Made by a program: the position numbers and the translations under genes. From a virus (lineage: Duplodnaviria; Heunggongvirae; Uroviricota; Caudoviricetes): a DNA stretch of 31,603 bases. The stretch spans positions 74,733 to 106,335 of the IMG/VR virus record IMGVR_UViG_3300037067_004979; one strand, written 5' to 3'. Shown here in pieces: positions 4,948 to 27,964 of the stretch. Position 1 is the stretch's first letter; every line of letters starts with the position of its first letter. The notes below the pieces were generated by a model. It did not search any database. It saw only the letters and a program-made list of their open reading frames with translations, and was not told the DNA's origin.

Positions 4948-5022
4948 CGCGAGGAGGGAAAGGTGGTAATCCGTGGGTCTCATAAACCTGAGAAGGAGGT
5001 TCAACTCCTCCCCTCGCTACCA
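4948..5022 (+). tRNA. tRNA-Met(CAT), initiator-like
   Basis: Cloverleaf: acceptor GCGAGG/CCTCGC with C1:U72 mismatch, D stem GGA/TCC with GG loop, anticodon loop CT-CAT-AA, T arm GGAGG-TTCAACT-CCTCC, discriminator A, encoded CCA. Confidence 0.9.
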
Positions 5023-6176: not shown

Positions 6177-7391
6177 ATGTACCCTAAGGAATATGAAGAT
6201 AAATTAATCTCTTTTATAAGAGAACCAGATAACCTAGCACAGATACTTATTAGTGGTGTTACGTCTGATACATTTAATATCAGAAGGGATGTATTTGATT
6301 TTATTATAAAGTATAAGAATAAGTATAGTAATGTGCCATCTAAGTCTGTTATAGAGGCAAACTTCCAAGATTTTAAGGTTGTGGATAATGTTAAGCCAGA
6401 GGAAACAAAATTCTATATTGATGAGTTAAAGAAGTTTGAGATAAAGAGAAAAGCGCGTAAAATTCTAGACAAGAGTGTTGATATGATGGAGAGTGATCCA
6501 TATGGATGTTTGGATTATCTCATTGCAAAACTTCCAGCACTGAGAAAAACATCTGATTATACAAGGAGTTATACTGATAGGGAAGCAGAATCTAGATATG
6601 AGGATTATATAAACAGATCCACACTGAATGCACAGGGATTAACTGTTGGTATCAGGACTGGATTCTCCATACTTGATGATAAGTTAATGGGTTGGCAAAG
6701 AGGTAATTTAATAACCATAGTAGCATCATCTGGTAAGGGCAAGACTTGGTTAGCCCAGTATTTAGCAGCATTTCCATATGTTATGGAAGAACAGAGAGTA
6801 CTATTTCTTGAGCCAGAAATGTCTATATCTGAATCTGAACTAAGATGGGACACCATTGTTGGTAAGTTGATGGGTTATAAGTTTTCTAACAAGGGTCTCA
6901 GTGTAGGTACTGGTGTCAACAAGCATGAGTACAAGGAATTTCTAGATAAGGTTTCTAAGAATGAGCGATGGTTAACACTTACATCAGATAATAGAAAGAG
7001 ATTTACAATACAATCAATAGAGGCTGAGGTGGAGAAGTTTTCACCAGACATAGTAGTTCTTGATGGTTTTCTTTTACTGGATATAGGAGTAAAGGATTGG
7101 ACTACCATGGAAGATGCTGCTGCAGGAATCAAGAACATAGCACAAAATTATAACTTAATATTTATAGTTACTGCACAAGCCTCTAGATCAGCTAAGGATG
7201 AGATGCCTGAAATTCATGAGGTATTTGGTGGGGAGGCTCTAAGACATCAGTCAGACTGTATGATAATGATGTCTGATACAGATGAACCAAAGGTTAGAAA
7301 GATAGTCATACCAAAGAGAAGAAATGGTGAGCCCATAAATAAGCCAATTAAGATATCATTTGATGTAGACATAGGTGCAATAGGTATTTGA
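6177..7391 (+). CDS. dnaB: DnaB-like (SF4) replicative helicase
   Basis: Walker A ASSGKGKT; FLEPEMS; Walker B IVVLDG; VTAQASR; D..IMM...KRRNG arginine-finger region. Confidence 0.9.
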   Translation: MYPKEYEDKLISFIREPDNLAQILISGVTSDTFNIRRDVFDFIIKYKNKYSNVPSKSVIEANFQDFKVVDNVKPEETKFYIDELKKFEIKRKARKILDKSVDMMESDPYGCLDYLIAKLPALRKTSDYTRSYTDREAESRYEDYINRSTLNAQGLTVGIRTGFSILDDKLMGWQRGNLITIVASSGKGKTWLAQYLAAFPYVMEEQRVLFLEPEMSISESELRWDTIVGKLMGYKFSNKGLSVGTGVNKHEYKEFLDKVSKNERWLTLTSDNRKRFTIQSIEAEVEKFSPDIVVLDGFLLLDIGVKDWTTMEDAAAGIKNIAQNYNLIFIVTAQASRSAKDEMPEIHEVFGGEALRHQSDCMIMMSDTDEPKVRKIVIPKRRNGEPINKPIKISFDVDIGAIGI

Positions 7392-7675: not shown

Positions 7676-7829
7676 GGGTTTAATTGATGTAAAGAAGAGT
7701 ATTATAAATGACTTCAAGAAGGAATTGATGATAATGAAGTTAGATGAAAATAATAAAAAACAAGAGCGAAAACTAAAAATAATAAGAAAGTATTTACCAT
7801 GTAGCATAAAAAAAGAACTTCATGAATAG
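7668..7829 (+). CDS. Small basic hypothetical protein (53 aa, GTG start)
   Basis: Open frame VIKGLIDVKKS...IKKELHE* bridging the gap to primase; GAGG 7 nt upstream. Confidence 0.45.
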   Translation: MIKGLIDVKKSIINDFKKELMIMKLDENNKKQERKLKIIRKYLPCSIKKELHE

Positions 7830-8682
7830 AACAGATAAAATAAACCTAATTAAAAAAATAGGTATTAAGATAGATAAGGAAAGCTCATCTGGTGAGATAC
7901 AGTGTTTCTGCCCACTACATGATGACCATGAGCCATCACTAATGATTAACATAAATACTGGTAAGTATCAGTGTTTTTCTGGTTGCATTAGAGGAAGATC
8001 TCTAGAGGATCTAGTGAAAAAAATTACTGGAAGGGATATATACATTAACTCTGATGAAAGTTGGGGTGATTCATTTAAGGAAAAATTATATCCTAAGACT
8101 AAGAGCAGTATATTACCATCAATCCCATTACTACCATTAGCCGTGGGAAATCCAGGAGAGGAATACTTGATATCTAACAAGAGAAAGCTGGATCTAAATA
8201 TCATAAGTGAATTTAAGATAATGTATTGGGAACAGAGAAATGCTGTTGTGGTACCAATAGAGAATGTGGGTTACATGATTCGTGATATTGATGGTAAGAA
8301 GTTTAAATATGTTAATGGCACGAGAATCAATGATACACTATTTGGTTTAGAGAAAATTAATTTAAAGTCTAATGTTTTTATAATATTAGTTGAGGGTTGT
8401 TTTGATAAACTATGGTTACACAAGATAGGTTACAAAAATTCATTAGCTATAATGCATGGTGGTATATCAGATAGACAAGTGGAAATACTTAACTGGTTTC
8501 AGGTACCAATCTATATCATGATGGATAATGATGAGAATGGAGAGGGTAATAAGATCAGAGATCGTATATCTAACAGGTTAAGAGGTAAATTTAGGGTAAA
8601 GATTTGTGAATTACCAAGATTTAAGGATCCAAATGAATCAACAGAAATTGAAATTGCTGAATCAATTGAGAGCGCACATTAA
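7822..8682 (+). CDS. DNA primase (CHC2 zinc-binding plus TOPRIM)
   Basis: CFCPLHDDHEPS...CFSGC zinc domain; LVEGCFD and MDND TOPRIM acidic motifs; KDPNE. Confidence 0.9.
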   Translation: MNRTDKINLIKKIGIKIDKESSSGEIQCFCPLHDDHEPSLMININTGKYQCFSGCIRGRSLEDLVKKITGRDIYINSDESWGDSFKEKLYPKTKSSILPSIPLLPLAVGNPGEEYLISNKRKLDLNIISEFKIMYWEQRNAVVVPIENVGYMIRDIDGKKFKYVNGTRINDTLFGLEKINLKSNVFIILVEGCFDKLWLHKIGYKNSLAIMHGGISDRQVEILNWFQVPIYIMMDNDENGEGNKIRDRISNRLRGKFRVKICELPRFKDPNESTEIEIAESIESAH

Positions 8683-11128: not shown

Positions 11129-11443
11129 ATGTCAGAAGTAAGTGCAAAGATAGGTTTAACACTGAAGTTATTTAAGGATTCCAGTTATGAGTTTATTCGT
11201 CCTGAGATATCAATTGATAAGATAGATACCTCTAGACCAATTAAACCACAGATAGATGAGGCTGTTAAAGCTATACGTGAGGTTTGGGATGCTACAACAG
11301 AGGAAATGAATAAGATTCTGGCAGATGAGATGCCACAGGTAAATGCTGCAATGGAGGTACAGATAGCCAAAAAAATGAAGCGCATGGAGGAGACAATAAA
11401 ATCTCTTGATGAGCGCATAGCAAAGCTAACGGAGCCTGCATAA
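11129..11443 (+). CDS. Hypothetical coiled-coil protein
   Basis: 104 aa, AGGAG RBS, heptad C-terminus. Confidence 0.75.
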   Translation: MSEVSAKIGLTLKLFKDSSYEFIRPEISIDKIDTSRPIKPQIDEAVKAIREVWDATTEEMNKILADEMPQVNAAMEVQIAKKMKRMEETIKSLDERIAKLTEPA

Positions 11444-11796
11444 TGGATAAGATATCTACCCAGGGTGAGTATCAAAAGCAGGTGTTTGGTAAGGACCTAT
11501 CATCACTATCTGATAAACAAAGGATATCTGAATCTAATACAATGATATTAGCTGTGATAGAGGAACTGATGGAGCTAATGTCAGAGTATAAAGCCTTTGA
11601 GTGGAAAAAAGACAAGACACCTGATATTGATTTAATACATGAAGAAATTGTGGACATATATCACTTTTTTATGAACCTGTGTTTAATCTGGGGTTTAAAT
11701 AGTGATTCTAAATTAGAAGAATTTTATATCAGAAAGCTATCAAAGAATTATGAAAGAGGAGGTTTACATAATGATTCCTCTCACACTCATAAGTGA
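11443..11796 (+). CDS. All-alpha NTP pyrophosphatase (dimeric dUTPase/dCTPase/MazG-like)
   Basis: EELMELMSE..AFEWKK....IHEEIVDIYHFFMN acidic EExxE / EExxD motifs. Confidence 0.8.
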   Translation: MDKISTQGEYQKQVFGKDLSSLSDKQRISESNTMILAVIEELMELMSEYKAFEWKKDKTPDIDLIHEEIVDIYHFFMNLCLIWGLNSDSKLEEFYIRKLSKNYERGGLHNDSSHTHK

Positions 11797-12637
11797 TAAC
11801 ATAGATGATTTATATAAAAAATCTATAGTTGAGATTTTGAGTCAGTACTCTATTGTAGAAGCTAGAGGGTTAAAATTTAAAGAAGTTCTTTTTCCGCATT
11901 TAATTTTAACAAATCCTAGAGCAAGAATTATTCAAAACTCAGCTAGAAAGATTTCTAAAAAATTTATGATGGCTGAGTTTATTTGGATAATGAGTGGAAG
12001 TGAAGATGTCGAAATGATTTCACATTATAATAAGAATATTGTACAATTTTCAGATGATGAAAAGGTTTTCCATGGAGCATATGGCCCAAGATTAAGAATG
12101 TGGGAATATACTGAAAATTACGACCATAAATATTATGATCAATTAAGTGGTTGTTTAGAAAAATTGAAGAATGATCATGGAACACGTCAAGCGGTTATGA
12201 TTATTTTGAACCCTGGAATAGATTTTACAGTAAAAACAAAAGACATACCATGTAATGATTTATTACAATTCTTTATAAGGGATAATAAACTACATATGAG
12301 CTGTTATGTACGTTCCAATGACTTGAACTGGGGTTTTCCGTATGATGTATTTCACTGGACAATGCTACAAGAACTTTATGCTGGTATACTTGGTGTAGAA
12401 CTTGGTGAATACCACCATATTGCTGGTAGTTTTCATATTTATGACAAAGACTTAGAAAAAATGGATTTAATAAGTAGATGTCAAGTTAATCAAATAGAGA
12501 TGCCAAAAATGCCAAAATATACTGATTTACATATATTGACTACATTAAATAACTTTGAAAAAGAAATAAGAATATACCAGAAGCCTATTATTAAAGTTTT
12601 TGATTCATACTGGACTGAATTATTGAGTTGGTTATGA
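11771..12637 (+). CDS. Thymidylate-synthase-family enzyme, predicted dCMP hydroxymethylase
   Basis: TRQAV, DIPCN catalytic Cys, RSNDLNWGFPYD (Asp at the E. coli ThyA N177 position, as in T4 gp42), GSFHIY. Confidence 0.85.
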   Translation: MIPLTLISDNIDDLYKKSIVEILSQYSIVEARGLKFKEVLFPHLILTNPRARIIQNSARKISKKFMMAEFIWIMSGSEDVEMISHYNKNIVQFSDDEKVFHGAYGPRLRMWEYTENYDHKYYDQLSGCLEKLKNDHGTRQAVMIILNPGIDFTVKTKDIPCNDLLQFFIRDNKLHMSCYVRSNDLNWGFPYDVFHWTMLQELYAGILGVELGEYHHIAGSFHIYDKDLEKMDLISRCQVNQIEMPKMPKYTDLHILTTLNNFEKEIRIYQKPIIKVFDSYWTELLSWL

Positions 12638-14307
12638 AAATATCTTTAATTGATGCTATGCAAGCACCCAAAGTGTGTGCTATTGACTTAGAAACCACAG
12701 GTTTATCTTATGTTAGTGATAAAGCTCTAAATATGGGAATATATGGAGATAGTTTTGAAGGTTACTTTAATTTTTGTGATTATTCAAAGTCTCAATTAAG
12801 TAGTTTTTTTAGAGACTTTCTTAAATCACATTCTGTCATATTACATAATGCTAAATTTGACTTTCATTTTATTAATAAATTTACCTCTGTTGAGGATGTT
12901 GAATTCTCAGATACAATGATATTATCCCAGATAATTGATGAAAGAAAACCATCACATAAATTGGATTATTTAGCAAAGTCTAATTTTGGTGATTCGTCTT
13001 GTATAGCAAAAAATAAAGTGGATAATATATGGAAAGAGATAAAGAGCAGAAAAAAAGTTAAACTTTATACAGAAGTACCAGAAAATCTTCTTGGTGACAG
13101 AGCTGTGGAAGATAGCAAGAATTCTTATAAGTTATACAAAATATTTAGGCCTCTTTTATATAATACTTCTGTGTATTCAATGGAAAAAGAACTATTAAAG
13201 AGATTACTTATTATTGAAGAAAATGGTGTCTTGATTGATATAGACTATCTAAAAACCTTGAGGGTAAAATTACAAGATAGTATGCTTGCTCTTGAAGAGA
13301 AATACAAAGATATTAATTTGAATTCTTCTGATCAAGTTGGCAAAATTCTATTTAATAAGATGAATATTAGTCCAACAAAATTTACCAAAGGAGGAAAACC
13401 TTCTGCTGATGAAAGTGTATTAAAATCTTTGAATACTGAATTTTCTAGAGATGTTCTTGAATATAGAAACATATCGCATATGCTGAGTACATATGTTGAA
13501 GCTTTTTTAGATAGAAAGGATGATAATAATAAATTACATTGTAACTTTAAGCAATTGGGTGCAAGAACTAGTAGACTGAGTTGTACAGAACCTAATTTAC
13601 AACAAATACCAAAAGGCGAAATGATACGTAAAGCATTTATTGGTAATAAAAGTCTTTCGACATTCGACTATTCACAAATGGAAGCTATATTATATGCTCT
13701 ATTTAGAAAGGAGAAAACTTTACTTAGTGCTTTAGACAGTGGTAATGATTTGTATAAGGCCATGGCCACACAAGTTTTTTCTAAGAAAATTACTGATATA
13801 ACAGCTGAGGAGCGTGATACGGCTAAAGATATTTTTTTGGGGACTATATATGGAATGGGGCAAAAAACATTAGAAAGTAGAGCGAAAGGCATAACTATAG
13901 GACAGATTAGGTCTGCTTTTAAATCATTAACTAAATTTAATAAAGAAGTTTGTGAAAAAGTAGAATCTGATGGATACGTTGAAACTATTTTTGGTTACAG
14001 AAGACATCTGTTTGAAGATGAGGCTTACAAAGGAATAAATGCTATTATTCAAGGGTCTGCGGCTGGTATCCTTAAAAAATCTATAATAGCTTTTCCTAGT
14101 TATTTATTAAATAAATTTAGAATAACTGTACATGATGAAAATATTTTTGAGGATCTAGAAAAAGATGAATTTTATGAGGTAGAAAAAATAATGACTGAAT
14201 TTAGTGATTATCTTAAAGTAAAGATACGAACTGGTCAGACTTGGTGGGACTGTTGTAAAGATAAGGAACCTTCTTATACTGAAGAATTTTATAAGGTTGG
14301 TATGTAA
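12634..14307 (+). CDS. polA: Family A DNA polymerase with 3'-5' exonuclease, no 5'-3' exonuclease
   Basis: Exo I DLETTG, Exo II HNAKFD; TSRLSCTEPNLQQIP; motif A FDYSQME; motif B RDTAKDIFLGTIYG; motif C VHDE. Confidence 0.93.
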   Translation: MKISLIDAMQAPKVCAIDLETTGLSYVSDKALNMGIYGDSFEGYFNFCDYSKSQLSSFFRDFLKSHSVILHNAKFDFHFINKFTSVEDVEFSDTMILSQIIDERKPSHKLDYLAKSNFGDSSCIAKNKVDNIWKEIKSRKKVKLYTEVPENLLGDRAVEDSKNSYKLYKIFRPLLYNTSVYSMEKELLKRLLIIEENGVLIDIDYLKTLRVKLQDSMLALEEKYKDINLNSSDQVGKILFNKMNISPTKFTKGGKPSADESVLKSLNTEFSRDVLEYRNISHMLSTYVEAFLDRKDDNNKLHCNFKQLGARTSRLSCTEPNLQQIPKGEMIRKAFIGNKSLSTFDYSQMEAILYALFRKEKTLLSALDSGNDLYKAMATQVFSKKITDITAEERDTAKDIFLGTIYGMGQKTLESRAKGITIGQIRSAFKSLTKFNKEVCEKVESDGYVETIFGYRRHLFEDEAYKGINAIIQGSAAGILKKSIIAFPSYLLNKFRITVHDENIFEDLEKDEFYEVEKIMTEFSDYLKVKIRTGQTWWDCCKDKEPSYTEEFYKVGM

Positions 14308-15929
14308 TGCTAATTTCATTAGGGCATAACTCATCTGCTATAAGAACAGGTGATGAAGTAGTTGGCTATGAAGAAGAAAGATTAACAAGAATAAAATCTG
14401 ATTCCACTTTTCCTGTTAATTCATTAAAAAAACTTAATTTTTCAAAGTCAGATGTAACTTATATATCACATTGGTATGATAATTTTGACTTTTACAAAGA
14501 AAGTATACCTGATATAGGAAACCATCAGTATAATTATCTATACATGGGTATGACAAATCCTGAAATAGTGACACTAAGTAAAAATTTTACTCATCATGAT
14601 GCGCATGCCTACTCTTCTCTAGCTTTTTTGAGAGAATTTAGCAATAAAAATGAGCCATTCTATCTAATTGTAGCAGACGGTTTTGGTAACAAACAAGAAG
14701 TTATTTCTATATATAAAACCATAGGAACAGACATTTCTCTAATAGATAGAATTTTTGATTATAAACATTCTTTGGGGTTGCTTTATCAATATGCAACATC
14801 TTTTGTTGGCATGAAGGAAAATCAAGATGAGTATAAATTTTTAGGTTATGAATCACATGTTGATGATTATCTATCAAAAAAAGAAATGGAAGATCTTGAT
14901 AAAGAAGCTTATAAATACATAAGTCACTGGATACAAACTATTGGTAAACATAGTGTATTACCAGATGAAAAATACATAAATATAGAAGAATTAAGAGACA
15001 GCAAAAAGTATTTCTATGATGTTTTTAATGAAATAAATAAGATTTTTAAGTGTAAATCTAAAGATAGCCTTAGGTCTATTATAGGTTACTTTGTACAGAA
15101 AGTAATAGAAGAGATAAATATATACTTTATTCAAAAATATGGGATGGAAAATGTAGCCCTTTCTGGTGGTTTGTATTATAATGTTAAGTTGAATAATAAA
15201 ATATTAAAAACTATTCCTGGTAAACTTAGTGTTATACCACTCGCAGGAGATCAAGGTGCTGCTATAGGCTTGTATTATAAGTATAACTATAGCTTCAAAT
15301 TTAAAGACTTACTCTGGGGCAAAAGAGAAATAGAAAATATTAGCAATTACAACATTAGCCATATAGTTAATAAGCTAAAAAATGATGAAATCGTCCAAAT
15401 TGTTTGTGGTAATATGGAGTTTGGGCCAAGAGCTTTATGTAATACTAGTACTTTATGTATACCAAATAAAGAAAATGTTGGTCTAATTAATTATATCAAT
15501 GGCAGAAATACAGTAATGCCAATGGCACCTGTTATATTAGAGAAAAATCTTGCTGAATTCTTTGAGAAAGACCAATTTTCTAGAGTAATTGGGTCTGATA
15601 GATTTATGATTATAACGTATGATTATAAGAATAATCCTGGTGATTTTTATGGTGGTGCTGCTCATAAATATCCCATGATTGATAGATACAGTGGCAGGCC
15701 ACAAGTAATAACGGATAGAAATTCATACATCTATAAAGTTCTTTTAGAATTGGACAAATCTAATATAAAGATGCTTATAAATACAAGTTTCAATGTGCAC
15801 GGAAAGCCTATTGTTTATTCTGAAATTGATGCTATAAATGATTTTGATTATCAAAAGCAACGTTCAAAGGACAGAAATAACAAGCCTATTCATTTGCTTA
15901 TTGGTAATATATGGAGATCAAATGAATAG
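14307..15929 (+). CDS. O-carbamoyltransferase (CmcH/NodU/TobZ family)
   Basis: GHNSSA, EEERLTRIK, HHDAHAYS, DGFG, LSGGLYYNVKLN, GDQGAAIG, EFGPRAL, INTSFNVHGKPIV; Kae1-like plus YrdC-like domains. Confidence 0.93.
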   Translation: MLISLGHNSSAIRTGDEVVGYEEERLTRIKSDSTFPVNSLKKLNFSKSDVTYISHWYDNFDFYKESIPDIGNHQYNYLYMGMTNPEIVTLSKNFTHHDAHAYSSLAFLREFSNKNEPFYLIVADGFGNKQEVISIYKTIGTDISLIDRIFDYKHSLGLLYQYATSFVGMKENQDEYKFLGYESHVDDYLSKKEMEDLDKEAYKYISHWIQTIGKHSVLPDEKYINIEELRDSKKYFYDVFNEINKIFKCKSKDSLRSIIGYFVQKVIEEINIYFIQKYGMENVALSGGLYYNVKLNNKILKTIPGKLSVIPLAGDQGAAIGLYYKYNYSFKFKDLLWGKREIENISNYNISHIVNKLKNDEIVQIVCGNMEFGPRALCNTSTLCIPNKENVGLINYINGRNTVMPMAPVILEKNLAEFFEKDQFSRVIGSDRFMIITYDYKNNPGDFYGGAAHKYPMIDRYSGRPQVITDRNSYIYKVLLELDKSNIKMLINTSFNVHGKPIVYSEIDAINDFDYQKQRSKDRNNKPIHLLIGNIWRSNE

Positions 15930-17172
15930 TTTTAAGATAGCTTGTTCTGGAGCGTGTCATTCAGGTAAAACTACATTTATAGAGTCAATAAAGGAGAAAC
16001 TTGGGGATGATGTTGTCATTTTTAATGAGCATGCAAGAGATGAGTCTATTAGCAATATAGATGAGCTTCGTAATAATTCAGATGAATATTTTAAATTCCA
16101 GACTAGAGTGATATCAAACAAGATTAAAGATGAAAATTATTCCTTTAGTATAAAGGATAAAATTATTCTTTTTGATAGAAGTTTAGTAGATTCATTTTAT
16201 TATTTAACATTTTTTGTAGATAAATCAACTTTATCAAGAGAAAATCTAGCTGAGTACTTAGGCTTTGTTAATTCTTTATATGATAGAAATGTTAAACCAA
16301 TTTATGATAGAATTTTGTTCTTTAATAGTCTATCTATAAAAGATCAGACTGACAAATACAGACCAAAGAATTTGGATTTATACCAAGAACTTGAGGAAAA
16401 ATATATATCATTGCTTTTAAATGGATTCAACAACAAAGTTAGTCAGTTTTCTAGAAAAGAAGATGATATTTCTTCTTTGATTTTTTCTATAAAGGAAAAT
16501 ATGGTTATGGCGCAGCAAAAGGTACTCTCTTCATATATAAACTATGAAGAGAGTATTGTAAAGAAGTACTTAATTTTAGATAATATCATTTCTAATAGAT
16601 TTGGATCTGTTGTGTCAAGTTCTTTTGATATGGATTATATGTTATTATCTGGTTTGTTGTTTAGTGATAATGTAGAAAATAGTAATATGATTATTAACAA
16701 AATAAAAGATATAGAAATAGAGCCAGATTTTATGAATTCTAGGTGTCACCCAACTGGCTTATTTATAAAAGGTAATGACATGATAGTTGGTGAGGCTCCT
16801 GGGCAAAAAGGCAGATCTATAAAACCAGAATATTTAAAGCCATCTTTTATTTTTGAAAAGCCTTCTTTCATATTAAGGAATTCTATAAAAGAGTCATTCA
16901 ATAGAATGCCATATATAACAAATCTTCTTAAATATGCTAGATCTGATAATAAAGTGACCAAAAAAGATTTTGATAAAACATCACACATCTTTGATTTAGA
17001 AGTTGATTTATTAAGCCCAAAAAGAATATTTGTCTTAGGAAGAAATGCTTTTGAATATCTATCTGAAAAATATTCAAATGTTATTTATATTAAGCATCCA
17101 GCAGCTATATTGTATACAGGAGAAGACATTAACGAATATAAAGCCTCTTTCAAGGAGAAAATTAAATGCTAG
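15922..17172 (+). CDS. Fusion of P-loop nucleoside/nucleotide kinase (AAA_28/NadR-like) and uracil-DNA-glycosylase-like domain
   Basis: N-terminal GACHSGKTT and FDRSLVD; C-terminal IVGEAPG, YITNLLK, E..LLSPKRIFVLGRNA, KHPAAILY. Start ATG 15922 preferred over 15838. Confidence 0.8.
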   Translation: MNSFKIACSGACHSGKTTFIESIKEKLGDDVVIFNEHARDESISNIDELRNNSDEYFKFQTRVISNKIKDENYSFSIKDKIILFDRSLVDSFYYLTFFVDKSTLSRENLAEYLGFVNSLYDRNVKPIYDRILFFNSLSIKDQTDKYRPKNLDLYQELEEKYISLLLNGFNNKVSQFSRKEDDISSLIFSIKENMVMAQQKVLSSYINYEESIVKKYLILDNIISNRFGSVVSSSFDMDYMLLSGLLFSDNVENSNMIINKIKDIEIEPDFMNSRCHPTGLFIKGNDMIVGEAPGQKGRSIKPEYLKPSFIFEKPSFILRNSIKESFNRMPYITNLLKYARSDNKVTKKDFDKTSHIFDLEVDLLSPKRIFVLGRNAFEYLSEKYSNVIYIKHPAAILYTGEDINEYKASFKEKIKC

Positions 17173-17780
17173 TAAATGTATTTAAAGCACCATTTTCAGA
17201 AAATGATACATTTTTAATTAAATTAATTAAGTTTAATTTGGCAGAAGAAAAACTTAATATTTTATGTAGTAGTGATGAGTACTTAGATTTAAAAATTAAA
17301 AGATTCAGAGAAAAGAATACATCTACATCTGGATTTGAGAAGTTTGAGAAAAAAGCATCTTTAAGTAGGCCATTAGACTCTCTAGAAGGTTCTATATATA
17401 CTTATACATGTGAAATTAGAAATAATGATACATATAGTGAATCTATAGATCATATTAAAACTCTTGTTAGTAAGAATTCAAGGAGGGCTATTTTAAGATT
17501 TTTAAATTCTGGATGGTCTTACTATTCATCAGAAACTATAAATAAAAAACTTAATGTTACATGTCTAGCCTATATTCAATACTTTAAAGACAGAGTTTCT
17601 ATTGTATTCAGAGCTAGTGATTTACAAGAAGAGCTGTTTGTTGATATAATAACTATATATGAATTTTTTATAAAGCCAATTTATAATATTCCTATAAATA
17701 TAGAAATATATTCTACTTCAGTTCAGAATCATTTATATTTTGGTGATTTAATTAATAAGCTGGAACTATTGGAGGGATGA
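17166..17780 (+). CDS. Second, shortened and divergent thymidylate-synthase-fold protein
   Basis: SRRAI, NVTCLAYIQY (Cys at the PC position), FRASDLQEELFVD (same R-x-x-D...D spacing), NHLY. Confidence 0.6.
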   Translation: MLVNVFKAPFSENDTFLIKLIKFNLAEEKLNILCSSDEYLDLKIKRFREKNTSTSGFEKFEKKASLSRPLDSLEGSIYTYTCEIRNNDTYSESIDHIKTLVSKNSRRAILRFLNSGWSYYSSETINKKLNVTCLAYIQYFKDRVSIVFRASDLQEELFVDIITIYEFFIKPIYNIPINIEIYSTSVQNHLYFGDLINKLELLEG

Positions 17781-18796
17781 TGCCTAAGAAAAAGAAGGAT
17801 GAAATTTCAGAAGAGTTTGATATAGATAAGCTAGCTGATTTAGCTAGTAAGTCTTTTAAGTGTGATATTGGTATTGCAAATAAACCAGAGTTTGCATTAT
17901 CTCTTGTCCAAACTGGATTACCAGTACTGGATAGATTACTGGGTGGAGGCTATCCAAGAGGTAGATTAAATATAATTACAGGGCCATTTGGTACTGGTAA
18001 GACATATATCTGCCATAACATAACTTCTAATTTTCAAAAGAATGGTTTATCATGTATATGGATAGATGCTGAGAGAAGATATAATCCTCAATGGGCTGAA
18101 AAGATTGGTGTTGATACAAATAAACTCATACTCAATAGGCCAACATTTGGAGAGGAAGCCATTGATCTTGTTCTATTCTATCTCAGCAAGAGGGTGGATC
18201 TCATTGTTATAGATTCAATAGCTGCCCTATCACCACTTGCTGAGTATGAGGCTGGTATGGAGCAAAAGTTCATGGGTTTGCAGAGTAATATGTTATCTAC
18301 TGCGTTTAGAAAGATAATTCCTGAAAATAATAACACTGTGTTGATATGCATTAACCAACTCAGGCAATCAATAGGTTCTAGATTTAATCCTGGTGTATTG
18401 AAGAAGATGCCTGGTGGAGATGCGCAGTATTTCTATGCCACATCAATTATGGAGGTAACTCGTAAGGGATGGATAACTGAGAAGGATGGTGATAGTGGTG
18501 GAGAAGAGGAGAAGCTCAGTGCAAAGAGACGTAGTGTTGGTTTTAATATAAACTGTTTCCTTGAGAAGTGTGATTTTGCATTGCCGTATAAATCATGTGA
18601 TCTACCATTCAACTTTACAACTGGTAAGATAGATAACACGTCTTCAATTGTTGATCTTGCTGTTGATTTAGAGCTAATCAAACACAGCGGTGCTTGGTTT
18701 TACTATGGTGAAGAGAAGTTTATGGGTAAGCAGGCCATGTTGGATTGGTTTAATGAGGATATAGCTAGATTGGATAAACTAAGGAGCTCCATATGA
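17777..18796 (+). CDS. recA: RecA recombinase
   Basis: GPFGTGKT, WIDAE, VIDSIAAL, CINQLR, PGG.A..FYA, GAWFYYGEEKF.GK. Confidence 0.93.
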   Translation: MMPKKKKDEISEEFDIDKLADLASKSFKCDIGIANKPEFALSLVQTGLPVLDRLLGGGYPRGRLNIITGPFGTGKTYICHNITSNFQKNGLSCIWIDAERRYNPQWAEKIGVDTNKLILNRPTFGEEAIDLVLFYLSKRVDLIVIDSIAALSPLAEYEAGMEQKFMGLQSNMLSTAFRKIIPENNNTVLICINQLRQSIGSRFNPGVLKKMPGGDAQYFYATSIMEVTRKGWITEKDGDSGGEEEKLSAKRRSVGFNINCFLEKCDFALPYKSCDLPFNFTTGKIDNTSSIVDLAVDLELIKHSGAWFYYGEEKFMGKQAMLDWFNEDIARLDKLRSSI

Positions 18797-19238: not shown

Positions 19239-19447
19239 TTAAATTAAGTGAAAAGCGTAGATGGTATAAGAAATATATACAAGCATGCATGCTGACTGAA
19301 TTTGGTGATTGTGACAAACCATTTATTGATTTTATAAATGAAGTAATTATTTATTTTAAGGATAATAGTGATGAAATATGGGGTTACATAAATCTAAGGG
19401 AATCACGGAGACATAAAGTAGCCCCATTTAAGAAGGTTAAATTTTGA
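19235..19447 (+). CDS. Hypothetical protein
   Basis: 70-aa coupled ORF. Confidence 0.55.
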   Translation: MIKLSEKRRWYKKYIQACMLTEFGDCDKPFIDFINEVIIYFKDNSDEIWGYINLRESRRHKVAPFKKVKF

Positions 19448-19770
19448 CAGATACACACTATACAGATAAACAAATAGAGGTAGCAGGATGGATAATGAAT
19501 CTTGGTTTTCAGGTAGAGTTAGAGCAGGTGCTCGGTAGATACTGTCTGGATATATACCTACCTGAGATACATGCTGCTGTGGAGATTGATGGTGATTCAC
19601 ACTATCAAAAGAAGGATGATAAGAGAGATCTGTGGCTTAAGGAAAACTATAAGTTGGATCACATACTACATCTTGATTTTAGTGTAAGGAAGAGTGAGTT
19701 TAAGAGAATATTCTTAACTTGGATAGAGAGGAATTTTAGTGGAGAAGAAACTGAAAAAGGGTCTAGCTAA
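19444..19770 (+). CDS. DUF559/Vsr-like endonuclease
   Basis: EQVLGRYCLDIYLP....VEIDGDSHY...DDKRDLWL. Confidence 0.85.
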   Translation: MTDTHYTDKQIEVAGWIMNLGFQVELEQVLGRYCLDIYLPEIHAAVEIDGDSHYQKKDDKRDLWLKENYKLDHILHLDFSVRKSEFKRIFLTWIERNFSGEETEKGSS

Positions 19771-22805: not shown

Positions 22806-23241
22806 GGTTATATATACTGTGTTTATAAATAATATTGGTAAGATAATAATAGATGATGTAGTAAATGATGATATAGAGCATGCTAAGTTCTTGATGTCTC
22901 AGGCTAGATGTGGTTGGAGATCAGAATTTAATATTCCAGTACCTATTGAGATACTTGATTCTAATAAATCACCAGAATGGGACTGCTTTGTAAAAATAAA
23001 TGATACCTGTGATACTGATGTGGTTCACGATTTTTATGAATCTGATAGATCATTGATAGATAATAAGAGACTGAAAGATCTTGGTGATATCTATGTATCT
23101 GACTCAATATATCATATTTTTAAGATAAATCCACAAAAAATGAAGAAGTATTTTAAAGCAATACCCAAAAAAGATGCTGATACAATAAAGAGAGATTTTA
23201 TGCTGCGTAATTTAGAGGGAGAAAATAGTGATCAAGAATAA
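22798..23241 (+). CDS. Hypothetical protein
   Basis: 147 aa, coupled to the FtsZ-like gene; ends MLRNLEGENSDQE. Confidence 0.7.
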   Translation: MNKVIYTVFINNIGKIIIDDVVNDDIEHAKFLMSQARCGWRSEFNIPVPIEILDSNKSPEWDCFVKINDTCDTDVVHDFYESDRSLIDNKRLKDLGDIYVSDSIYHIFKINPQKMKKYFKAIPKKDADTIKRDFMLRNLEGENSDQE

Positions 23242-24223
23242 GCTATTTAATGCCCCAGTTATTCTATCATTTGGTAGTGGGGCCGGTAAGATAATATCAC
23301 AGTTAAGTATTCCCAGCGTGTATAAGATTGCAGTTAACTCATCAGAGAGAGATTTGATGCTAATTGATAAGAGAGTTGATTCAATTGTTATTTGTGGTAA
23401 GGGTAATGGGTCTGGGATGGATCCGGATCAAGGCCAGGCAGACTTCTCATCTAGGTCCAAGAGTGTTGGCAAGGAGATAGAGGAGGCTATAGAGGAATCT
23501 AGATCAAGAGATATAGATATGATACCATGCATATTTAGTCTAGGTCATGGATTTGGTAGTGGTAGTATATACCCAGCAATAGAGTTTCTTAGAGATAGGT
23601 ATAAGAATGCAGTTATACTGCCATTTGTTGTGACTCCATTTACCTGGGAGGGAAAGCCTGTTATTGATAGAGCATATCTAGCACTGTCAAGAGCTATCCA
23701 ACTCAGTACATGTGTTGTTATCTCTAATGAGGAGGTTGGATCACAGTATGGGGATATTGGGGTTGGTTATGACAGAATCAATGGTCTGATTGGTGATGCC
23801 ATATCAACAATACTGAGGTCATTCTCTGCTACAGATGGTATCATACAGACTGTTGATAAGAATGACTTTGGCAAGTTCTTTAGAGGAGATATGGCTACTG
23901 TCAGACACATGAAGATAAAGTCTGCAAAGGATCTCAGGTTTTCTGATATCAAGGATGGAATAGGACGTCGTTGGATTAAGGTTGATGCTAAGGTGTTTAA
24001 GCCAGCTCATAAGCTAAATATCTTCTACATCCTTGACGGGAAGGGCCCGTTTAATCCACAGGTTTTGGGGGATATAAGTGATAACATCAGTAAGAAGGAT
24101 TACATTAATATGGAGTACATAAAGCCACTCTTGATACAAAGGAAATCAAGTGGATGTGATTTTGTATGGATGGAATCTGGCTTTAAATTAAAGTTGGATA
24201 AAAACATATATGGAGAATATTGA
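23228..24223 (+). CDS. Divergent FtsZ/tubulin-superfamily GTPase
   Basis: T1 SFGSGAGKI, T2 AVNSSERDL, T3 GNGSGMDPDQG, T4 SLGHGFGSG, T5 TPFTWEG, T6 ISNE, T7 GIIQTVDKNDF in the correct order and spacing. Confidence 0.85.
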   Translation: MIKNKLFNAPVILSFGSGAGKIISQLSIPSVYKIAVNSSERDLMLIDKRVDSIVICGKGNGSGMDPDQGQADFSSRSKSVGKEIEEAIEESRSRDIDMIPCIFSLGHGFGSGSIYPAIEFLRDRYKNAVILPFVVTPFTWEGKPVIDRAYLALSRAIQLSTCVVISNEEVGSQYGDIGVGYDRINGLIGDAISTILRSFSATDGIIQTVDKNDFGKFFRGDMATVRHMKIKSAKDLRFSDIKDGIGRRWIKVDAKVFKPAHKLNIFYILDGKGPFNPQVLGDISDNISKKDYINMEYIKPLLIQRKSSGCDFVWMESGFKLKLDKNIYGEY

Positions 24224-27278: not shown

Positions 27279-27519
27279 CTATAAGACAAAGATGGTTTTG
27301 GTCAATCTAACTGGTGGGAATTTTGTCTGGAGAGATAACATAGTTCAATATGACAACACATATCTTGGCAGGGATTTTTATAAGTGTGATCTATGTCAGG
27401 TACCATTTGAGACTGGTGATATGTATATGATATATATGGAAACATCATATAGGTATGAGGGTGGTGTGTTACCAAGGTTATGTATGAGGTGTTATAAAAA
27501 TGAGAATAGCGGGAATTGA
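27265..27519 (+). CDS. Zinc-binding hypothetical protein
   Basis: CDLC...CMRC. Confidence 0.65.
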   Translation: MKMNNYKTKMVLVNLTGGNFVWRDNIVQYDNTYLGRDFYKCDLCQVPFETGDMYMIYMETSYRYEGGVLPRLCMRCYKNENSGN

Positions 27520-27964
27520 TGCTGATTCAAAGAAATTAGCAGTTGTGGTTTTTGAGGATGATAAATTTGATTCAATGCACTTTTTTGAGTCAAAATCAAA
27601 GATAACACAGGAGAGGGTGTTTGATCTTTACTTTCACTTTGATTCATTCATAAAGTCTAGTAAGATAGATATGGTGGTTATGGAAGAATCCTTCTATACA
27701 AATAATTTTAAGACCAGCAAGGCAATTACAGAAGTGCTTGGTAATTGCAAAATGATATGTAGATTAAATAATATTCCATTTAAAATGGTTCAAAATAGGT
27801 CTTGGAAGAAGACTGTTATTGGTAGTGGTGATGCTACAAAGGATGGTATCAAGAGATTTGTGGTTGATAGGTATCCACAGTTTGAGAGAGAACCACAGGA
27901 TCTTAGTGATGCTCTATGTGTATGTTTGTACGGTGTTTTTACTAAGTTAAGAGGAGATGATTAA
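27500..27964 (+). CDS. ruvC: RuvC-like Holliday junction resolvase
   Basis: IAGID, VVMEE, WKK.VIGSGDATK, QDLSDALCV acidic tetrad. Confidence 0.85.
   Translation: MRIAGIDADSKKLAVVVFEDDKFDSMHFFESKSKITQERVFDLYFHFDSFIKSSKIDMVVMEESFYTNNFKTSKAITEVLGNCKMICRLNNIPFKMVQNRSWKKTVIGSGDATKDGIKRFVVDRYPQFEREPQDLSDALCVCLYGVFTKLRGDD

What the first reader, a model, noticed from the sequence alone, without database searches (positions are those of the whole stretch)
11443..17780. Self-contained cytosine hypermodification cassette with its own polymerase
Six tightly coupled genes reconstruct a pathway. An all-alpha dNTPase could supply dCMP and exclude dCTP/dUTP, as T4 gp56 does. The TS homolog has Asp at the N177 position, the known dCMP-versus-dUMP determinant of T4 dCMP hydroxymethylase. 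A P-loop kinase could re-phosphorylate hm-dCMP, PolA would incorporate it, and a CmcH/NodU carbamoyltransferase would decorate the hydroxymethyl group. Phage carbamoyltransferases making 5-carbamoyloxymethylcytosine are known (Yang et al. 2021, eLife). The architecture here (PolA between TS and carbamoyltransferase, a UDG-fused kinase, a second TS-fold gene) goes beyond that minimal pathway and may give a different or doubly modified base.
Basis: partly seen in the sequence, partly recalled or inferred. Interest (0 to 1): 0.85.

Follow-up and report, generated by a model that had tools for sequence, protein, structure and literature searches.

The report
Phage carbamoyl-hydroxymethylcytosine cassette, extra TS-fold enzyme
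An uncultured 106-kb phage carries the known gene set for replacing cytosine in its DNA with carbamoylated 5-hydroxymethylcytosine. It also carries two undescribed add-ons, a compact second thymidylate-synthase-fold enzyme and a kinase fused to a uracil-DNA-glycosylase domain, so the published pathway may be incomplete.

Summary
Positions 11443-17780 hold six overlapping + strand genes:
- a gp56-like all-alpha NTP pyrophosphatase
- a thymidylate-synthase (TS) homolog with the T4 dCMP-hydroxymethylase signature (Glu58, Asp143, Cys146, Asp169, Gly173, Asp177)
- PolA
- a carbamoyltransferase with the three clade-marking residues (Ile/Cys/Thr) of the characterised 5hmC carbamoyltransferase (Yang 2021)
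- a dNK/TMPK-fold kinase fused to a family-4-like UDG
- a 204-aa protein that folds confidently as a TS fold

The core is the known 5-carbamoyloxymethylcytosine pathway, so it is not a new system.

PolA is not cassette-specific. The closest relative has a DnaE-type polymerase in that slot, and most related loci have no polymerase there.

The 204-aa protein is the new part. It belongs to an unnamed family of about 100 clusters at 50% identity and is absent from 50,697 isolate phage records. In 18 of 18 viral loci it sits with a carbamoyltransferase and a canonical TS. It keeps Cys, Tyr94, the phosphate arginines and Asp177, but lacks Glu58 and has Glu for Gly173.

About 72% of 47 informative carbamoyltransferase loci carry some second TS-fold gene.

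Its reaction is unknown, and the final base may differ from 5cmC.

This scan noted the same extra TS-fold enzyme earlier on another genome (e1-5389345).

The parts
11443..11796 (+). All-alpha NTP pyrophosphatase (117 aa), in the same Pfam family as T4 gp56 dCTPase/dUTPase. Inferred role: hydrolyse dCTP (and dUTP) to the monophosphate. This feeds the hydroxymethylase and keeps plain dCTP out of DNA.
   Evidence: Pfam dUTPase_2 5.1e-9 and phrog_173 NTP pyrophosphohydrolase. T4 gp56 itself hits dUTPase_2 at 2e-5. The two share the E-(I/L)-VDI-(Y/F)-HF motif (BLASTP 1e-6). The metal-binding ExxE...ExxD motifs are intact. Substrate is not tested.
11771..12637 (+). TS homolog, predicted dCMP 5-hydroxymethylase (T4 gp42 / MilA type).
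   Evidence: PF00303 1e-26. Best solved relative is MilA CMP hydroxymethylase, 4e-27. Signature in E. coli numbering is E58, Y94, R126, D143, C146, R166, S167, D169, G173, D177, H207, Y209, matching T4-like gp42. D143 and D177 are the hydroxymethyl and cytosine markers named in PMC13326640. It is the only PF00303 match in the 106-kb genome.
12634..14307 (+). Family A DNA polymerase with 3'-5' exonuclease, the phage replicase. It must accept the modified dCTP but is not specific to the cassette.
   Evidence: DNA_pol_A 4e-68, DNA_pol_A_exo1 5e-9, phrog_17. Motifs DLET, DYSQME, RDTAKDIFLGTIYG and VHDE are present. Relative L066 has a DnaE-type polymerase at this slot.
14307..15929 (+). NodU/CmcH/TobZ-family O-carbamoyltransferase of the phage 5hmC-carbamoyltransferase clade.
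   Evidence: Carbam_trans_N 2e-20 and Carbam_trans_C 2e-28; phrog_1601 1e-65. Metal and active-site motifs are present: GHN, HHDAH, ADGFG, GDQG, EFGPRAL, NTSFN. At TobZ positions W408/G421/R423 it has I/C/T, identical to the enzyme assayed by Yang et al..
15922..17172 (+). Fusion protein (416 aa). N-terminal dNK/TMPK-fold P-loop nucleotide kinase (about 15922-16460), helical linker, C-terminal family-4-like UDG domain (about 16700-17169). Inferred roles: the kinase phosphorylates the modified dCMP, and the UDG domain removes uracil-type deamination products from phage DNA.
   Evidence: AAA_28 4.5e-8, UDG 7.8e-9, TIGR00758 UDG_fam4 2e-5. AlphaFold2 pLDDT 91, pTM 0.89. Foldseek finds family-4 UDGs 4zbx and 1ui0 (TMt 0.62-0.69) and dCK, dAK and TMPK. 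At least 20 homologous fusions exist, with invariant GEAPG, YITN and a near-invariant HPA motif (His at least 90%, Pro invariant). The start at 15922 has a GGAG site upstream.
17166..17780 (+). orf204, a compact (204 aa) TS-fold protein of an unnamed family. Predicted to be a catalytically competent, folate-independent cytidylate-binding enzyme. Its reaction is unknown.
   Evidence: - No Pfam, PHROG or NCBIfam hit.
- AlphaFold2 pLDDT 94.9.
- VIA-align Z 11.3-12.1 to T4 dCH, the flavin dCMP hydroxylase AfhB (9iqc, 9iqu) and MilA, against about 10 for ordinary TS.
- 101 proteins at E<=0.001 among 50%-identity representatives, nearly all about 200 aa.
- Conservation over 88 members: Y78 100%; C133, R149 and D160 97%; E156 95%.
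- E. coli-numbered signature: Y94, R126, R127, N/D143, C146, R166, D169, E173, D177, and no E58.
- Monophyletic at 100/100 on a long branch.
17777..18796 (+). RecA/UvsX recombinase, translationally coupled to orf204. It belongs to the replication and recombination module, not the modification chemistry.
   Evidence: RecA 3.7e-43, RecA_C, phrog_97.

Best explanation
This is a phage pathway that replaces cytosine with 5-hydroxymethylcytosine and O-carbamoylates it to 5-carbamoyloxymethylcytosine (5cmC), the system described by Yang et al. 2021. Every step is inferred from homology and signature residues. None was assayed.

Proposed steps:
1. The gp56-like all-alpha pyrophosphatase converts dCTP to dCMP.
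2. The TS homolog (11771-12637) hydroxymethylates dCMP using methylene-tetrahydrofolate.
3. The P-loop kinase domain converts the modified dCMP to the diphosphate, and host NDP kinase makes the triphosphate.
4. The phage PolA incorporates it.
5. The carbamoyltransferase makes carbamoyl-AMP from carbamoyl phosphate and ATP and transfers the carbamoyl group to the 5-CH2OH. This could happen on single-stranded or replicating DNA, or before incorporation. The carbamoyltransferase and kinase genes are tightly paired, which fits the second option.

The UDG domain fused to the kinase most likely removes uracil-type bases (U, 5hmU or its carbamoyl form) that arise by deamination.

The 204-aa TS-fold protein is a conserved accessory enzyme. 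It binds a cytidine 5'-monophosphate derivative and attacks C6 with Cys133, without folate. What it makes is unknown.
For: - Domain calls.
- TS signature identical in kind to T4 gp42 (E58/D143/C146/D169/G173/D177). The meaning of positions 143, 169 and 177 is taken from PMC13326640 and PMC8670742.
- Every TS-fold ORF that matched the core motif in the related loci has Asp177.
- The carbamoyltransferase has I408/C421/T423, as in the enzyme shown to carbamoylate 5hmC in DNA and 5hmdCTP but not 5hmdUTP or 5mdCTP. Of 27 distinct homologs that matched the motif, 26 have C421/T423.
- gp56 is in the same Pfam family.
- The module of carbamoyltransferase, kinase, (second TS-fold) and TS recurs in 57 IMG/VR loci and in Bacteroides, Xanthomonas and Acinetobacter phage isolates.
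- Among isolate phages, this kinase type occurs only next to the carbamoyltransferase of the Bacteroides phages.
- UDG motifs and fold are intact.
- orf204's fold, conservation and strict linkage (18 of 18 loci).
Against: - No chemistry was measured. 5cmC has been shown only in vitro with one enzyme that I could not align in full; I compared only motifs read from the paper.
- The kinase has no specific similarity to T4 gp1. Its fold does not separate nucleoside kinases from nucleotide kinases.
- A conserved, catalytic-looking second TS-fold enzyme implies at least one reaction the published pathway does not contain, so 5cmC may not be the end product.
- The UDG domain lacks the four Fe-S cysteines of family 4.
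- The genome has no dCMP deaminase, ThyX, MazG or second canonical TS, so the balance of nucleotide pools is unexplained.
Confidence: 0.7

Rival explanations
1. The end product is not, or not only, 5cmC. orf204 would be a folate-independent TS-fold enzyme that processes dCMP, 5hm-dCMP or 5cm-dCMP. One route: Cys133 adds at C6, the carbamate leaves as a leaving group, and another nucleophile adds to the exocyclic methylene. Another route: a C5 oxidation like that of AfhB or RB69 gp48. Either way the virion DNA would carry a further or second modified cytosine.
For: - orf204 keeps the nucleophile Cys, Tyr94, both phosphate arginines, Arg166, Asp169 and Asp177 across 88 diverse members. It replaces Gly173 with a 95%-conserved Glu and lacks Glu58.
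- It occurs only in carbamoyltransferase loci (18 of 18).
- It occupies the same slot (after carbamoyltransferase-kinase, before the canonical TS) as an independent second TS-fold clade. That clade lacks E58 and G173 and mostly carries D169N, the published 5hodCMP-synthase marker.
- 34 of 47 informative loci have some second TS-fold gene.
- Its structure ties with cytidylate-specific enzymes, including the flavin hydroxylase AfhB.
Against: - orf204 has Asp, not Asn, at position 169, so it fails the published hydroxylase marker.
- 13 of 47 loci manage with one TS-fold gene, and the assayed enzyme made 5cmC without any partner, so orf204 is not essential to carbamoylation.
- No cofactor site could be examined.
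- It might be a non-catalytic partner or regulator.
Confidence: 0.22
2. orf204 is a non-catalytic TS-fold subunit. It would form a heterodimer with the hydroxymethylase, or a scaffold with the carbamoyltransferase or kinase, to channel or regulate 5hm-dCMP. The final base would remain 5cmC.
For: TS enzymes are obligate dimers that share arginines across the interface, and orf204 keeps the SRR motif. In many loci orf204 abuts or overlaps the start of the canonical TS gene, for example L004, L010, L016, L020, L031, L061, L066 and L068.
Against: A mere scaffold would not be expected to keep the nucleophile Cys, Tyr94 and Asp177 at 97-100%. In this window orf204 lies 4.5 kb from the TS gene. No interaction was tested.
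Confidence: 0.06
3. The cassette modifies thymine or uracil (an SPO1 or ViI-type 5-hydroxymethyl-dU pathway), or merely methylates cytosine (XP12-type 5mC), and the carbamoyltransferase acts on something other than DNA.
For: The gene logic (dUTPase-family pyrophosphatase, TS homolog, kinase, UDG-like domain) resembles the logic of 5hmU pathways.
Against: - Both TS-fold proteins have Asp, not Asn, at position 177.
- The TS homolog has Asp143, the hydroxymethylase marker, not a hydrophobic residue.
- No 5-HMUDK or aGPT-Pplase family hit.
- The kinase finds no thymidine-hypermodifying phage.
- The carbamoyltransferase carries the residues of the clade shown to reject 5hmdUTP and 5mdCTP.
Confidence: 0.02

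Closest known systems
Phage 5-hydroxymethylcytosine carbamoyltransferase system giving 5-carbamoyloxymethylcytosine (Yang et al., eLife 2021, PMC8670742)
   Same: Two-domain NodU/TobZ-type carbamoyltransferase with the same residues (I/C/T) at the three clade-marking positions. It is co-located with an Asp177 TS homolog and an all-alpha NTP pyrophosphatase in a phage genome.
   Different: The paper does not mention a kinase, a glycosylase domain or a second TS-fold gene. It counted each Pfam domain once per contig, and orf204 has no Pfam hit. Here the pyrophosphatase is dUTPase_2 type rather than PRA-PH, and there is no dCMP deaminase in the genome. Identity to related carbamoyltransferases is only 35-48%.
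T4 pre-replicative 5hmC pathway: gp56 dCTPase, gp42 dCMP hydroxymethylase, gp1 dNMP kinase
   Same: Same logic and same enzyme families for gp56 (dUTPase_2) and gp42 (identical active-site signature).
   Different: The decoration is a carbamoyl group rather than glucose. The kinase is a different P-loop family, with only the P-loop aligning to gp1, and is fused to a UDG domain. The polymerase is family A, not family B.
Flavin-dependent 5-hydroxy-dCMP synthases (RB69 gp48, DLP3 gp80, HY126 AfhB; PMC13326640; PDB 9iqc, 9iqu)
   Same: orf204 is a short TS-fold protein with Asp177 and Cys146, without Glu58 and without Gly173, as in RB69 gp48. Structural similarity to AfhB ties for best (Z 12.0).
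   Different: orf204 keeps Asp169, whereas the diagnostic for these synthases is D169N. There is no significant sequence similarity. orf204 forms its own long-branch clade. No flavin evidence exists.
Family-4 uracil-DNA glycosylases (for example Sulfolobus tokodaii 4zbx, Thermus thermophilus 1ui0)
   Same: Whole-domain fold match (TMt 0.62-0.69). GEAPG and (Y)ITN are invariant in the fusion family, and the His of HPA is conserved in at least 90% of members.
   Different: It lacks the four Fe-S cluster cysteines; only one Cys is invariant. It is fused behind a nucleotide kinase through a helical linker. Its substrate is unknown.

Membership tests
Phage 5hmC carbamoyltransferase (Yang 2021) | Carbam_trans_N (Kae1/ASKHA-like) plus Carbam_trans_C (YrdC-like) domains with intact motifs | tested here: met
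   Pfam 2.1e-20 and 2.4e-28. Motifs HHDAH, ADGFG, GDQG, EFGPRAL and NTSFN are present.
Phage 5hmC carbamoyltransferase (Yang 2021) | Clade-specific residues at TobZ W408/G421/R423, the highest differential-conservation positions | tested here: met
   The window has I/C/T (IVCGNMEFGPRALCNT). The assayed enzyme reads INIVRGNMEFGPRALCNT, which is also I/C/T. The register was fixed by alignment to NovN, which has W, G and R at the same spacing. I compared motifs only, not a full-length alignment.
Phage 5hmC carbamoyltransferase (Yang 2021) | Co-located TS homolog with Asp at N177 | tested here: met
   All TS-fold ORFs that matched the core motif in the related loci end in Asp177.
Phage 5hmC carbamoyltransferase (Yang 2021) | Carbamoyl transfer to 5hmC in DNA or 5hmdCTP; 5cmdC in virion DNA | not testable with these tools
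   Needs an enzyme assay or LC-MS.
dCMP hydroxymethylase (T4 gp42 type), for 11771-12637 | TS fold with catalytic Cys146, Glu58, Tyr94 and Arg166 | tested here: met
   PF00303 1e-26; signature table.
dCMP hydroxymethylase (T4 gp42 type), for 11771-12637 | Asp177 (cytosine), acidic residue at 143 (hydroxymethyl rather than methyl), Asp169 (not the D169N hydroxylase form) | tested here: met
   D143, D169 and D177; criteria from PMC13326640.
5hodCMP synthase (RB69 gp48 / AfhB), for orf204 | D169N substitution | tested here: not met
   orf204 has Asp152 at the 169 position. It is Asp in 80 of 88 family members.
5hodCMP synthase (RB69 gp48 / AfhB), for orf204 | TS fold with Cys146 and Asp177, lacking the folate-chemistry residues Glu58 and Gly173 | tested here: met
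   RB69 gp48 reads F58/V173; orf204 reads K58(?)/E173. The alignment of the position-58 region is uncertain.
5hodCMP synthase (RB69 gp48 / AfhB), for orf204 | Bound flavin; O2-dependent hydroxylation | not testable with these tools
   Needs purified protein.
Family-4 UDG, for the C-terminal domain of 15922-17172 | Motif A GE(A/G)PG, TN, motif B HP(A/S), and the UDG fold | tested here: met
Family-4 UDG, for the C-terminal domain of 15922-17172 | Four cysteines ligating a 4Fe-4S cluster | tested here: not met
   Only Cys275 is invariant in the 17-member alignment, and KYA replaces the KCRPP segment.
T4 gp56 dCTPase/dUTPase family (Pfam dUTPase_2) | All-alpha NTP-PPase domain with ExxE...ExxD metal motifs | tested here: met
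   Substrate specificity is not testable here.
T4 gp1 dNMP kinase | Sequence homology beyond the P-loop | tested here: not met
   hhalign aligns only 21 P-loop residues, probability 1.3%. The fold is dNK/TMPK-like. 'Works like gp1' is an inference from pathway need.
Thymidine hypermodification (5-HMUDK / aGPT-Pplase systems) | dUMP-specific (Asn177) hydroxymethylase, 5-HMUDK kinase, aGPT-Pplase | tested here: not met
   Asp177 in both TS-fold proteins. No such Pfam families. The kinase finds no such phages.

The most novel reading that the evidence does not exclude
Carbamoyltransferase cassettes have recruited a second, folate-independent TS-fold enzyme at least twice independently: the orf204 family and a D169N/no-Glu58 clade. 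In this phage, orf204 would use Cys133, Asp160 and Glu156 to transform dCMP or a C5-substituted dCMP. The virion DNA would then carry a cytosine derivative that has not been described, or two different modified cytosines, rather than plain 5cmC.
Probability: 0.25. Interest if true: 0.8.

Novelty: new variant of a known kind. Interest (0 to 1): 0.55.

Why it matters
DNA hypermodifications decide whether phages escape restriction and CRISPR. They also supply enzymes for epigenetic sequencing chemistry. The 5cmC pathway rests on one in-vitro study, and the held literature reports no virion chemistry for it.

This analysis shows that most carbamoyltransferase cassettes carry a second TS-fold enzyme that the published Pfam-based survey could not see. 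It defines a compact family of about 100 clusters with an intact catalytic core but no folate-chemistry residues. That gives a concrete, cheap experiment: co-expression in E. coli with and without orf204, followed by nucleoside LC-MS. The experiment could reveal a new base or a new TS-fold reaction.

The cultured Bacteroides fragilis phages (BF486P2 group) carry the sister architecture and could be analysed directly.

Tried and rejected
- Megablast of the cassette against 50,697 phage records found no match.
- tblastn of orf204 against the same records found no match.
- A profile of orf204 against PDB sequences gave only MilA at E 1.4, which is not significant.
- hhalign of orf204 against the window's TS gave probability 11.7%, E 0.0025. 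The register was right, but this is weak on its own.
- orf204 as a substitute for dCMP deaminase is rejected. Zinc dCMP deaminases co-occur with orf204 in most loci.
- orf204 as a relative of the second TS-fold gene of Bacteroides phage BF486P2 is not supported by direct comparison (hhalign E 0.17). Iterated HMMs do join all TS-fold ORFs.
- Kinase as a T4 gp1 homolog: only the P-loop aligns.
- Kinase as a 5-HMUDK-type DNA kinase: nothing supports it.
- The genome has no dCMP deaminase, ThyX or MazG.
- PolA as a conserved cassette member is rejected.
- Complex prediction was not used. A TS-fold heterodimer would probably pass merely by likeness to solved TS homodimers, so it would not discriminate between readings.
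- The full-length sequence of the Yang et al. enzyme could not be aligned. It has no reference id, so only short motifs were compared.

Full report
**What is there**

The window is the last 31.6 kb of a 106,335-bp IMG/VR virus record that CheckV rates complete. All genes in the region run on the + strand. The surrounding genes form a bacterial-type replication and recombination module:
- DnaB-like helicase, 6177-7391
- DnaG-type primase, 7822-8682
- RecA/UvsX, 17777-18796
- RuvC, 27500-27964
- intein-containing class I RNR, 27964-30591

Between them sit the six genes of the finding. They are joined by overlapping stop and start codons, and most have Shine-Dalgarno sites. The gene starts I prefer are 11443, 11771, 12634, 14307, 15922 and 17166.

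The block 11771-17780 is a compositional island. It has 25-29.5% G+C, against 35.6% for the genome and 37-40% for the flanking genes.

**Gene by gene**

1. 11443-11796 is a 117-aa all-alpha NTP pyrophosphatase (Pfam dUTPase_2, 5e-9). T4 gp56 dCTPase/dUTPase falls in the same Pfam family and shares the EIVDIxHF motif. The gp56 analogy therefore rests on a test, although substrate specificity is only inferred.

2. 11771-12637 is a TS homolog.
   - Its best solved relative is the CMP hydroxymethylase MilA (4e-27).
   - I aligned it with E. coli ThyA, a T4-like gp42 and RB69 gp48, fetched. It reads E58, Y94, R126, D143, C146, R166, S167, D169, G173, D177, H207, Y209.
   - By the criteria in PMC13326640 and PMC8670742, Asp177 means dCMP, an acidic residue at 143 means hydroxymethyl rather than methyl, and Asp169 (not Asn) means the folate enzyme rather than the flavin hydroxylase.
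   - It is the genome's only PF00303 match.

3. 12634-14307 is an intact PolA with proofreading exonuclease.

4. 14307-15929 is a two-domain NodU/TobZ-type carbamoyltransferase. At the three positions that Yang et al. found to separate carbamoyltransferases of modified contigs from the rest (TobZ W408, G421, R423), it has Ile, Cys and Thr. The enzyme they assayed has the same three. Of 27 distinct homologs in related loci that matched the motif, 26 also have Cys and Thr.

5. 15922-17172 is a fusion of a dNK/TMPK-fold kinase with a family-4-like UDG.
   - The model is confident as a single body (pLDDT 91, pTM 0.89).
   - The C-terminal domain covers whole family-4 UDG structures. The N-terminal domain matches dCK, dAK and thymidylate kinases.
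   - The fusion is a family, with at least 20 clusters at 37-43% identity. In the fusion-family alignment GEAPG and YITN are invariant and the HPA motif is near-invariant (His at least 90%, Pro invariant). The four Fe-S cysteines are absent.

6. 17166-17780 (orf204) has no hit in Pfam, PHROGs or NCBIfam.
   - With 19 homologs it folds at pLDDT 94.9.
   - All structural matches are TS-fold proteins.
   - By VIA-align, the ten best matches (Z 11.3-12.1) are exactly the cytidylate-specific members: T4 dCMP hydroxymethylase, MilA and the flavin dCMP hydroxylase AfhB. Ordinary thymidylate synthases follow at Z about 10.

**Neighbourhood survey**

A carbamoyltransferase-first scan of IMG/VR returned 57 loci at 34-47% identity. 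tblastn and iterated HMM searches over all ORFs of these loci show a recurring module: carbamoyltransferase, kinase, (second TS-fold gene), canonical TS.

Every TS-fold ORF that matched the core motif has Asp at position 177.

The 47 informative loci split as follows:

| TS-fold content of the locus | Loci |
|---|---|
| One TS-fold gene | 13 |
| Canonical TS plus an orf204-type gene | 14 |
| Canonical TS plus a second clade lacking Glu58 and Gly173, mostly with D169N | 20 (two are truncated loci where only the second-clade gene is in range) |

D169N is the residue Lee et al. 2026 use to recognise 5-hydroxy-dCMP synthases. On a maximum-likelihood tree both extra clades are monophyletic (100/100) and unrelated to each other. 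The orf204 clade sits on a very long branch. Both extra genes occupy the same slot, directly after carbamoyltransferase-kinase.

An orf204-first scan found 18 viral loci. All 18 have a carbamoyltransferase upstream and a canonical TS downstream.

The orf204 family has 101 proteins at E<=0.001 among the 50%-identity representatives, nearly all about 200 aa, with no bridge to ordinary TS. It is absent from 50,697 isolate phage records.

Over 88 diverse members the catalytic-type residues are nearly invariant:
- Tyr78 (Tyr94 in E. coli numbering), 100%
- Cys133 (Cys146), 97%
- Arg149 (Arg166), 97%
- Asp160 (position 177), 97%
- Glu156 (at the Gly173 position), 95%
- the SRR phosphate arginines, 86-88%

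**The polymerase**

The closest relative of this phage is L066. Its identities are helicase 40%, primase 37%, carbamoyltransferase 48%, kinase-UDG 42%, orf204 41%, TS 55% and RecA 46%. Its gene order is pyrophosphatase, carbamoyltransferase, kinase-UDG, orf204, TS. That is followed by a DnaE-type Pol III alpha, a dCMP deaminase and a DUF1599 protein.

Only L047, L049 and L051 have a PolA near the carbamoyltransferase. The same chemistry is therefore served by unrelated polymerases. PolA is the replicase that happens to sit inside the cassette here. The shared low G+C of TS through orf204 hints that the block, PolA included, may have moved together. However, the kinase-UDG and orf204 genes are equally AT-rich in L066, so this evidence is weak.

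**Interpretation**

The core is the 5cmC pathway of Yang et al. 2021. The membership features that can be tested in silico are all met.

The kinase is needed because a TS-type enzyme makes a monophosphate. Lee et al. had to co-express cognate dNMP kinases to get 5hodC into DNA. Among isolates, this kinase type occurs only beside the carbamoyltransferase of Bacteroides fragilis phages. Yang et al. found activity on 5hmdCTP. Together these facts make carbamoylation before incorporation a live possibility.

The UDG domain keeps all base-recognition motifs of a uracil glycosylase. Repair of deaminated (hydroxymethyl or carbamoyloxymethyl) cytosine is the simplest role for it, but that is an inference.

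For orf204 I commit to the following: it is a folate-independent, Cys-dependent enzyme acting on a cytidine monophosphate derivative. I cannot name the reaction. The flavin-hydroxylase reading fails the D169N marker. The dCMP-deaminase reading fails on co-occurrence. The pure-scaffold reading fits poorly with 97-100% conservation of the catalytic residues.

**Relation to earlier work**

- Yang et al. mention no kinase, glycosylase or second TS-like gene. Their survey counted each Pfam domain once per contig.
- Lee et al. 2026 do not mention carbamoylation.
- No later paper on 5cmdC is in the held library.
- This scan has met the 5cmC cassette many times. At least once (e1-5389345, another genome) it noted a compact extra TS-fold enzyme. 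The lead is therefore not unique to this window.
- Earlier notes on this genome call it a probable archaeal virus. The replication genes seen here are bacterial in type (RecA with RecA_C, DnaB, DnaG-type primase, RuvC, PolA), and so are the Shine-Dalgarno sites. I leave the host open.

**Verdict**

The polymerase claim is not supported. The second TS-fold enzyme, and to a lesser degree the kinase-UDG fusion, are genuine undescribed variants that deserve a bench test.

Noticed in passing
window 11771-17780: The five genes from TS to orf204 form a low-G+C island: 25-29.5%, against 35.6% for the genome and 37-40% for the flanking genes. This may mean the block, PolA included, was acquired together. 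However, the kinase-UDG and orf204 genes are equally AT-rich in the relative L066.
   Followed up: partly
L066:9429-13606: The closest relative has the same cassette but carries a DnaE-type Pol III alpha (PHP, DNA_pol3_alpha, finger, HHH_6) where this phage has PolA. That is a non-homologous polymerase swap at one locus. L066 also has a dCMP deaminase and a DUF1599 'nucleotide modification associated' protein that this genome lacks.
   Followed up: partly
L021:10384-11145, L039:10413-11186, L015:10373-11206 and 14 more; isolate L077:8501-9262 (Bacteroides phage BF486P2): About 20 Bacteroides-phage-like carbamoyltransferase loci carry, right after carbamoyltransferase-kinase, a second TS-fold gene without Glu58 or Gly173. 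Most have D169N, the published marker of flavin 5-hydroxy-dCMP synthases. A canonical hydroxymethylase-type TS lies further downstream. A hydroxylase that needs O2 would be odd in phages of an anaerobe. The link between this marker and carbamoyltransferases is not in the papers I read.
   Followed up: partly
Bacillus phage G gp315 (NC_023719.1 231500-231844): The UDG-like domain of the fusion matches a Bacillus phage G gene annotated as thymidylate kinase (31% identity, 1e-8). A kinase-UDG fusion may therefore exist in a cultured jumbo phage.
   Followed up: no
whole genome (G000): No dCMP deaminase (PF00383), ThyX (PF02511), MazG (PF03819) or second PF00303 gene was found in the 106-kb genome. 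The phage seems to rely on the host for dTMP while diverting dCMP.
   Followed up: partly
window 19444-19770: A 108-aa ORF has weak hits to DUF559 (Vsr-like endonuclease fold, 1.4e-4) and to the N-terminal domain of PvuRts1I-like 5hmC-dependent restriction enzymes (5.5e-3). It may be a small nuclease that senses modification. The hits are too weak to call.
   Followed up: no
window 12634-14307: PolA motif B reads RDTAKDIFLGTIYG. It has Leu where E. coli Pol I has Phe762, the residue that contacts the sugar of the incoming nucleotide.
   Followed up: no
window 27964-30591: The class I ribonucleotide reductase large subunit is interrupted by an intein with an HNH endonuclease domain.
   Followed up: no
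window 23228-24223 and 4948-5022: A phage tubulin/FtsZ-family GTPase (Tubulin 2.8e-10) and a tRNA-Met (CAT) gene.
   Followed up: no
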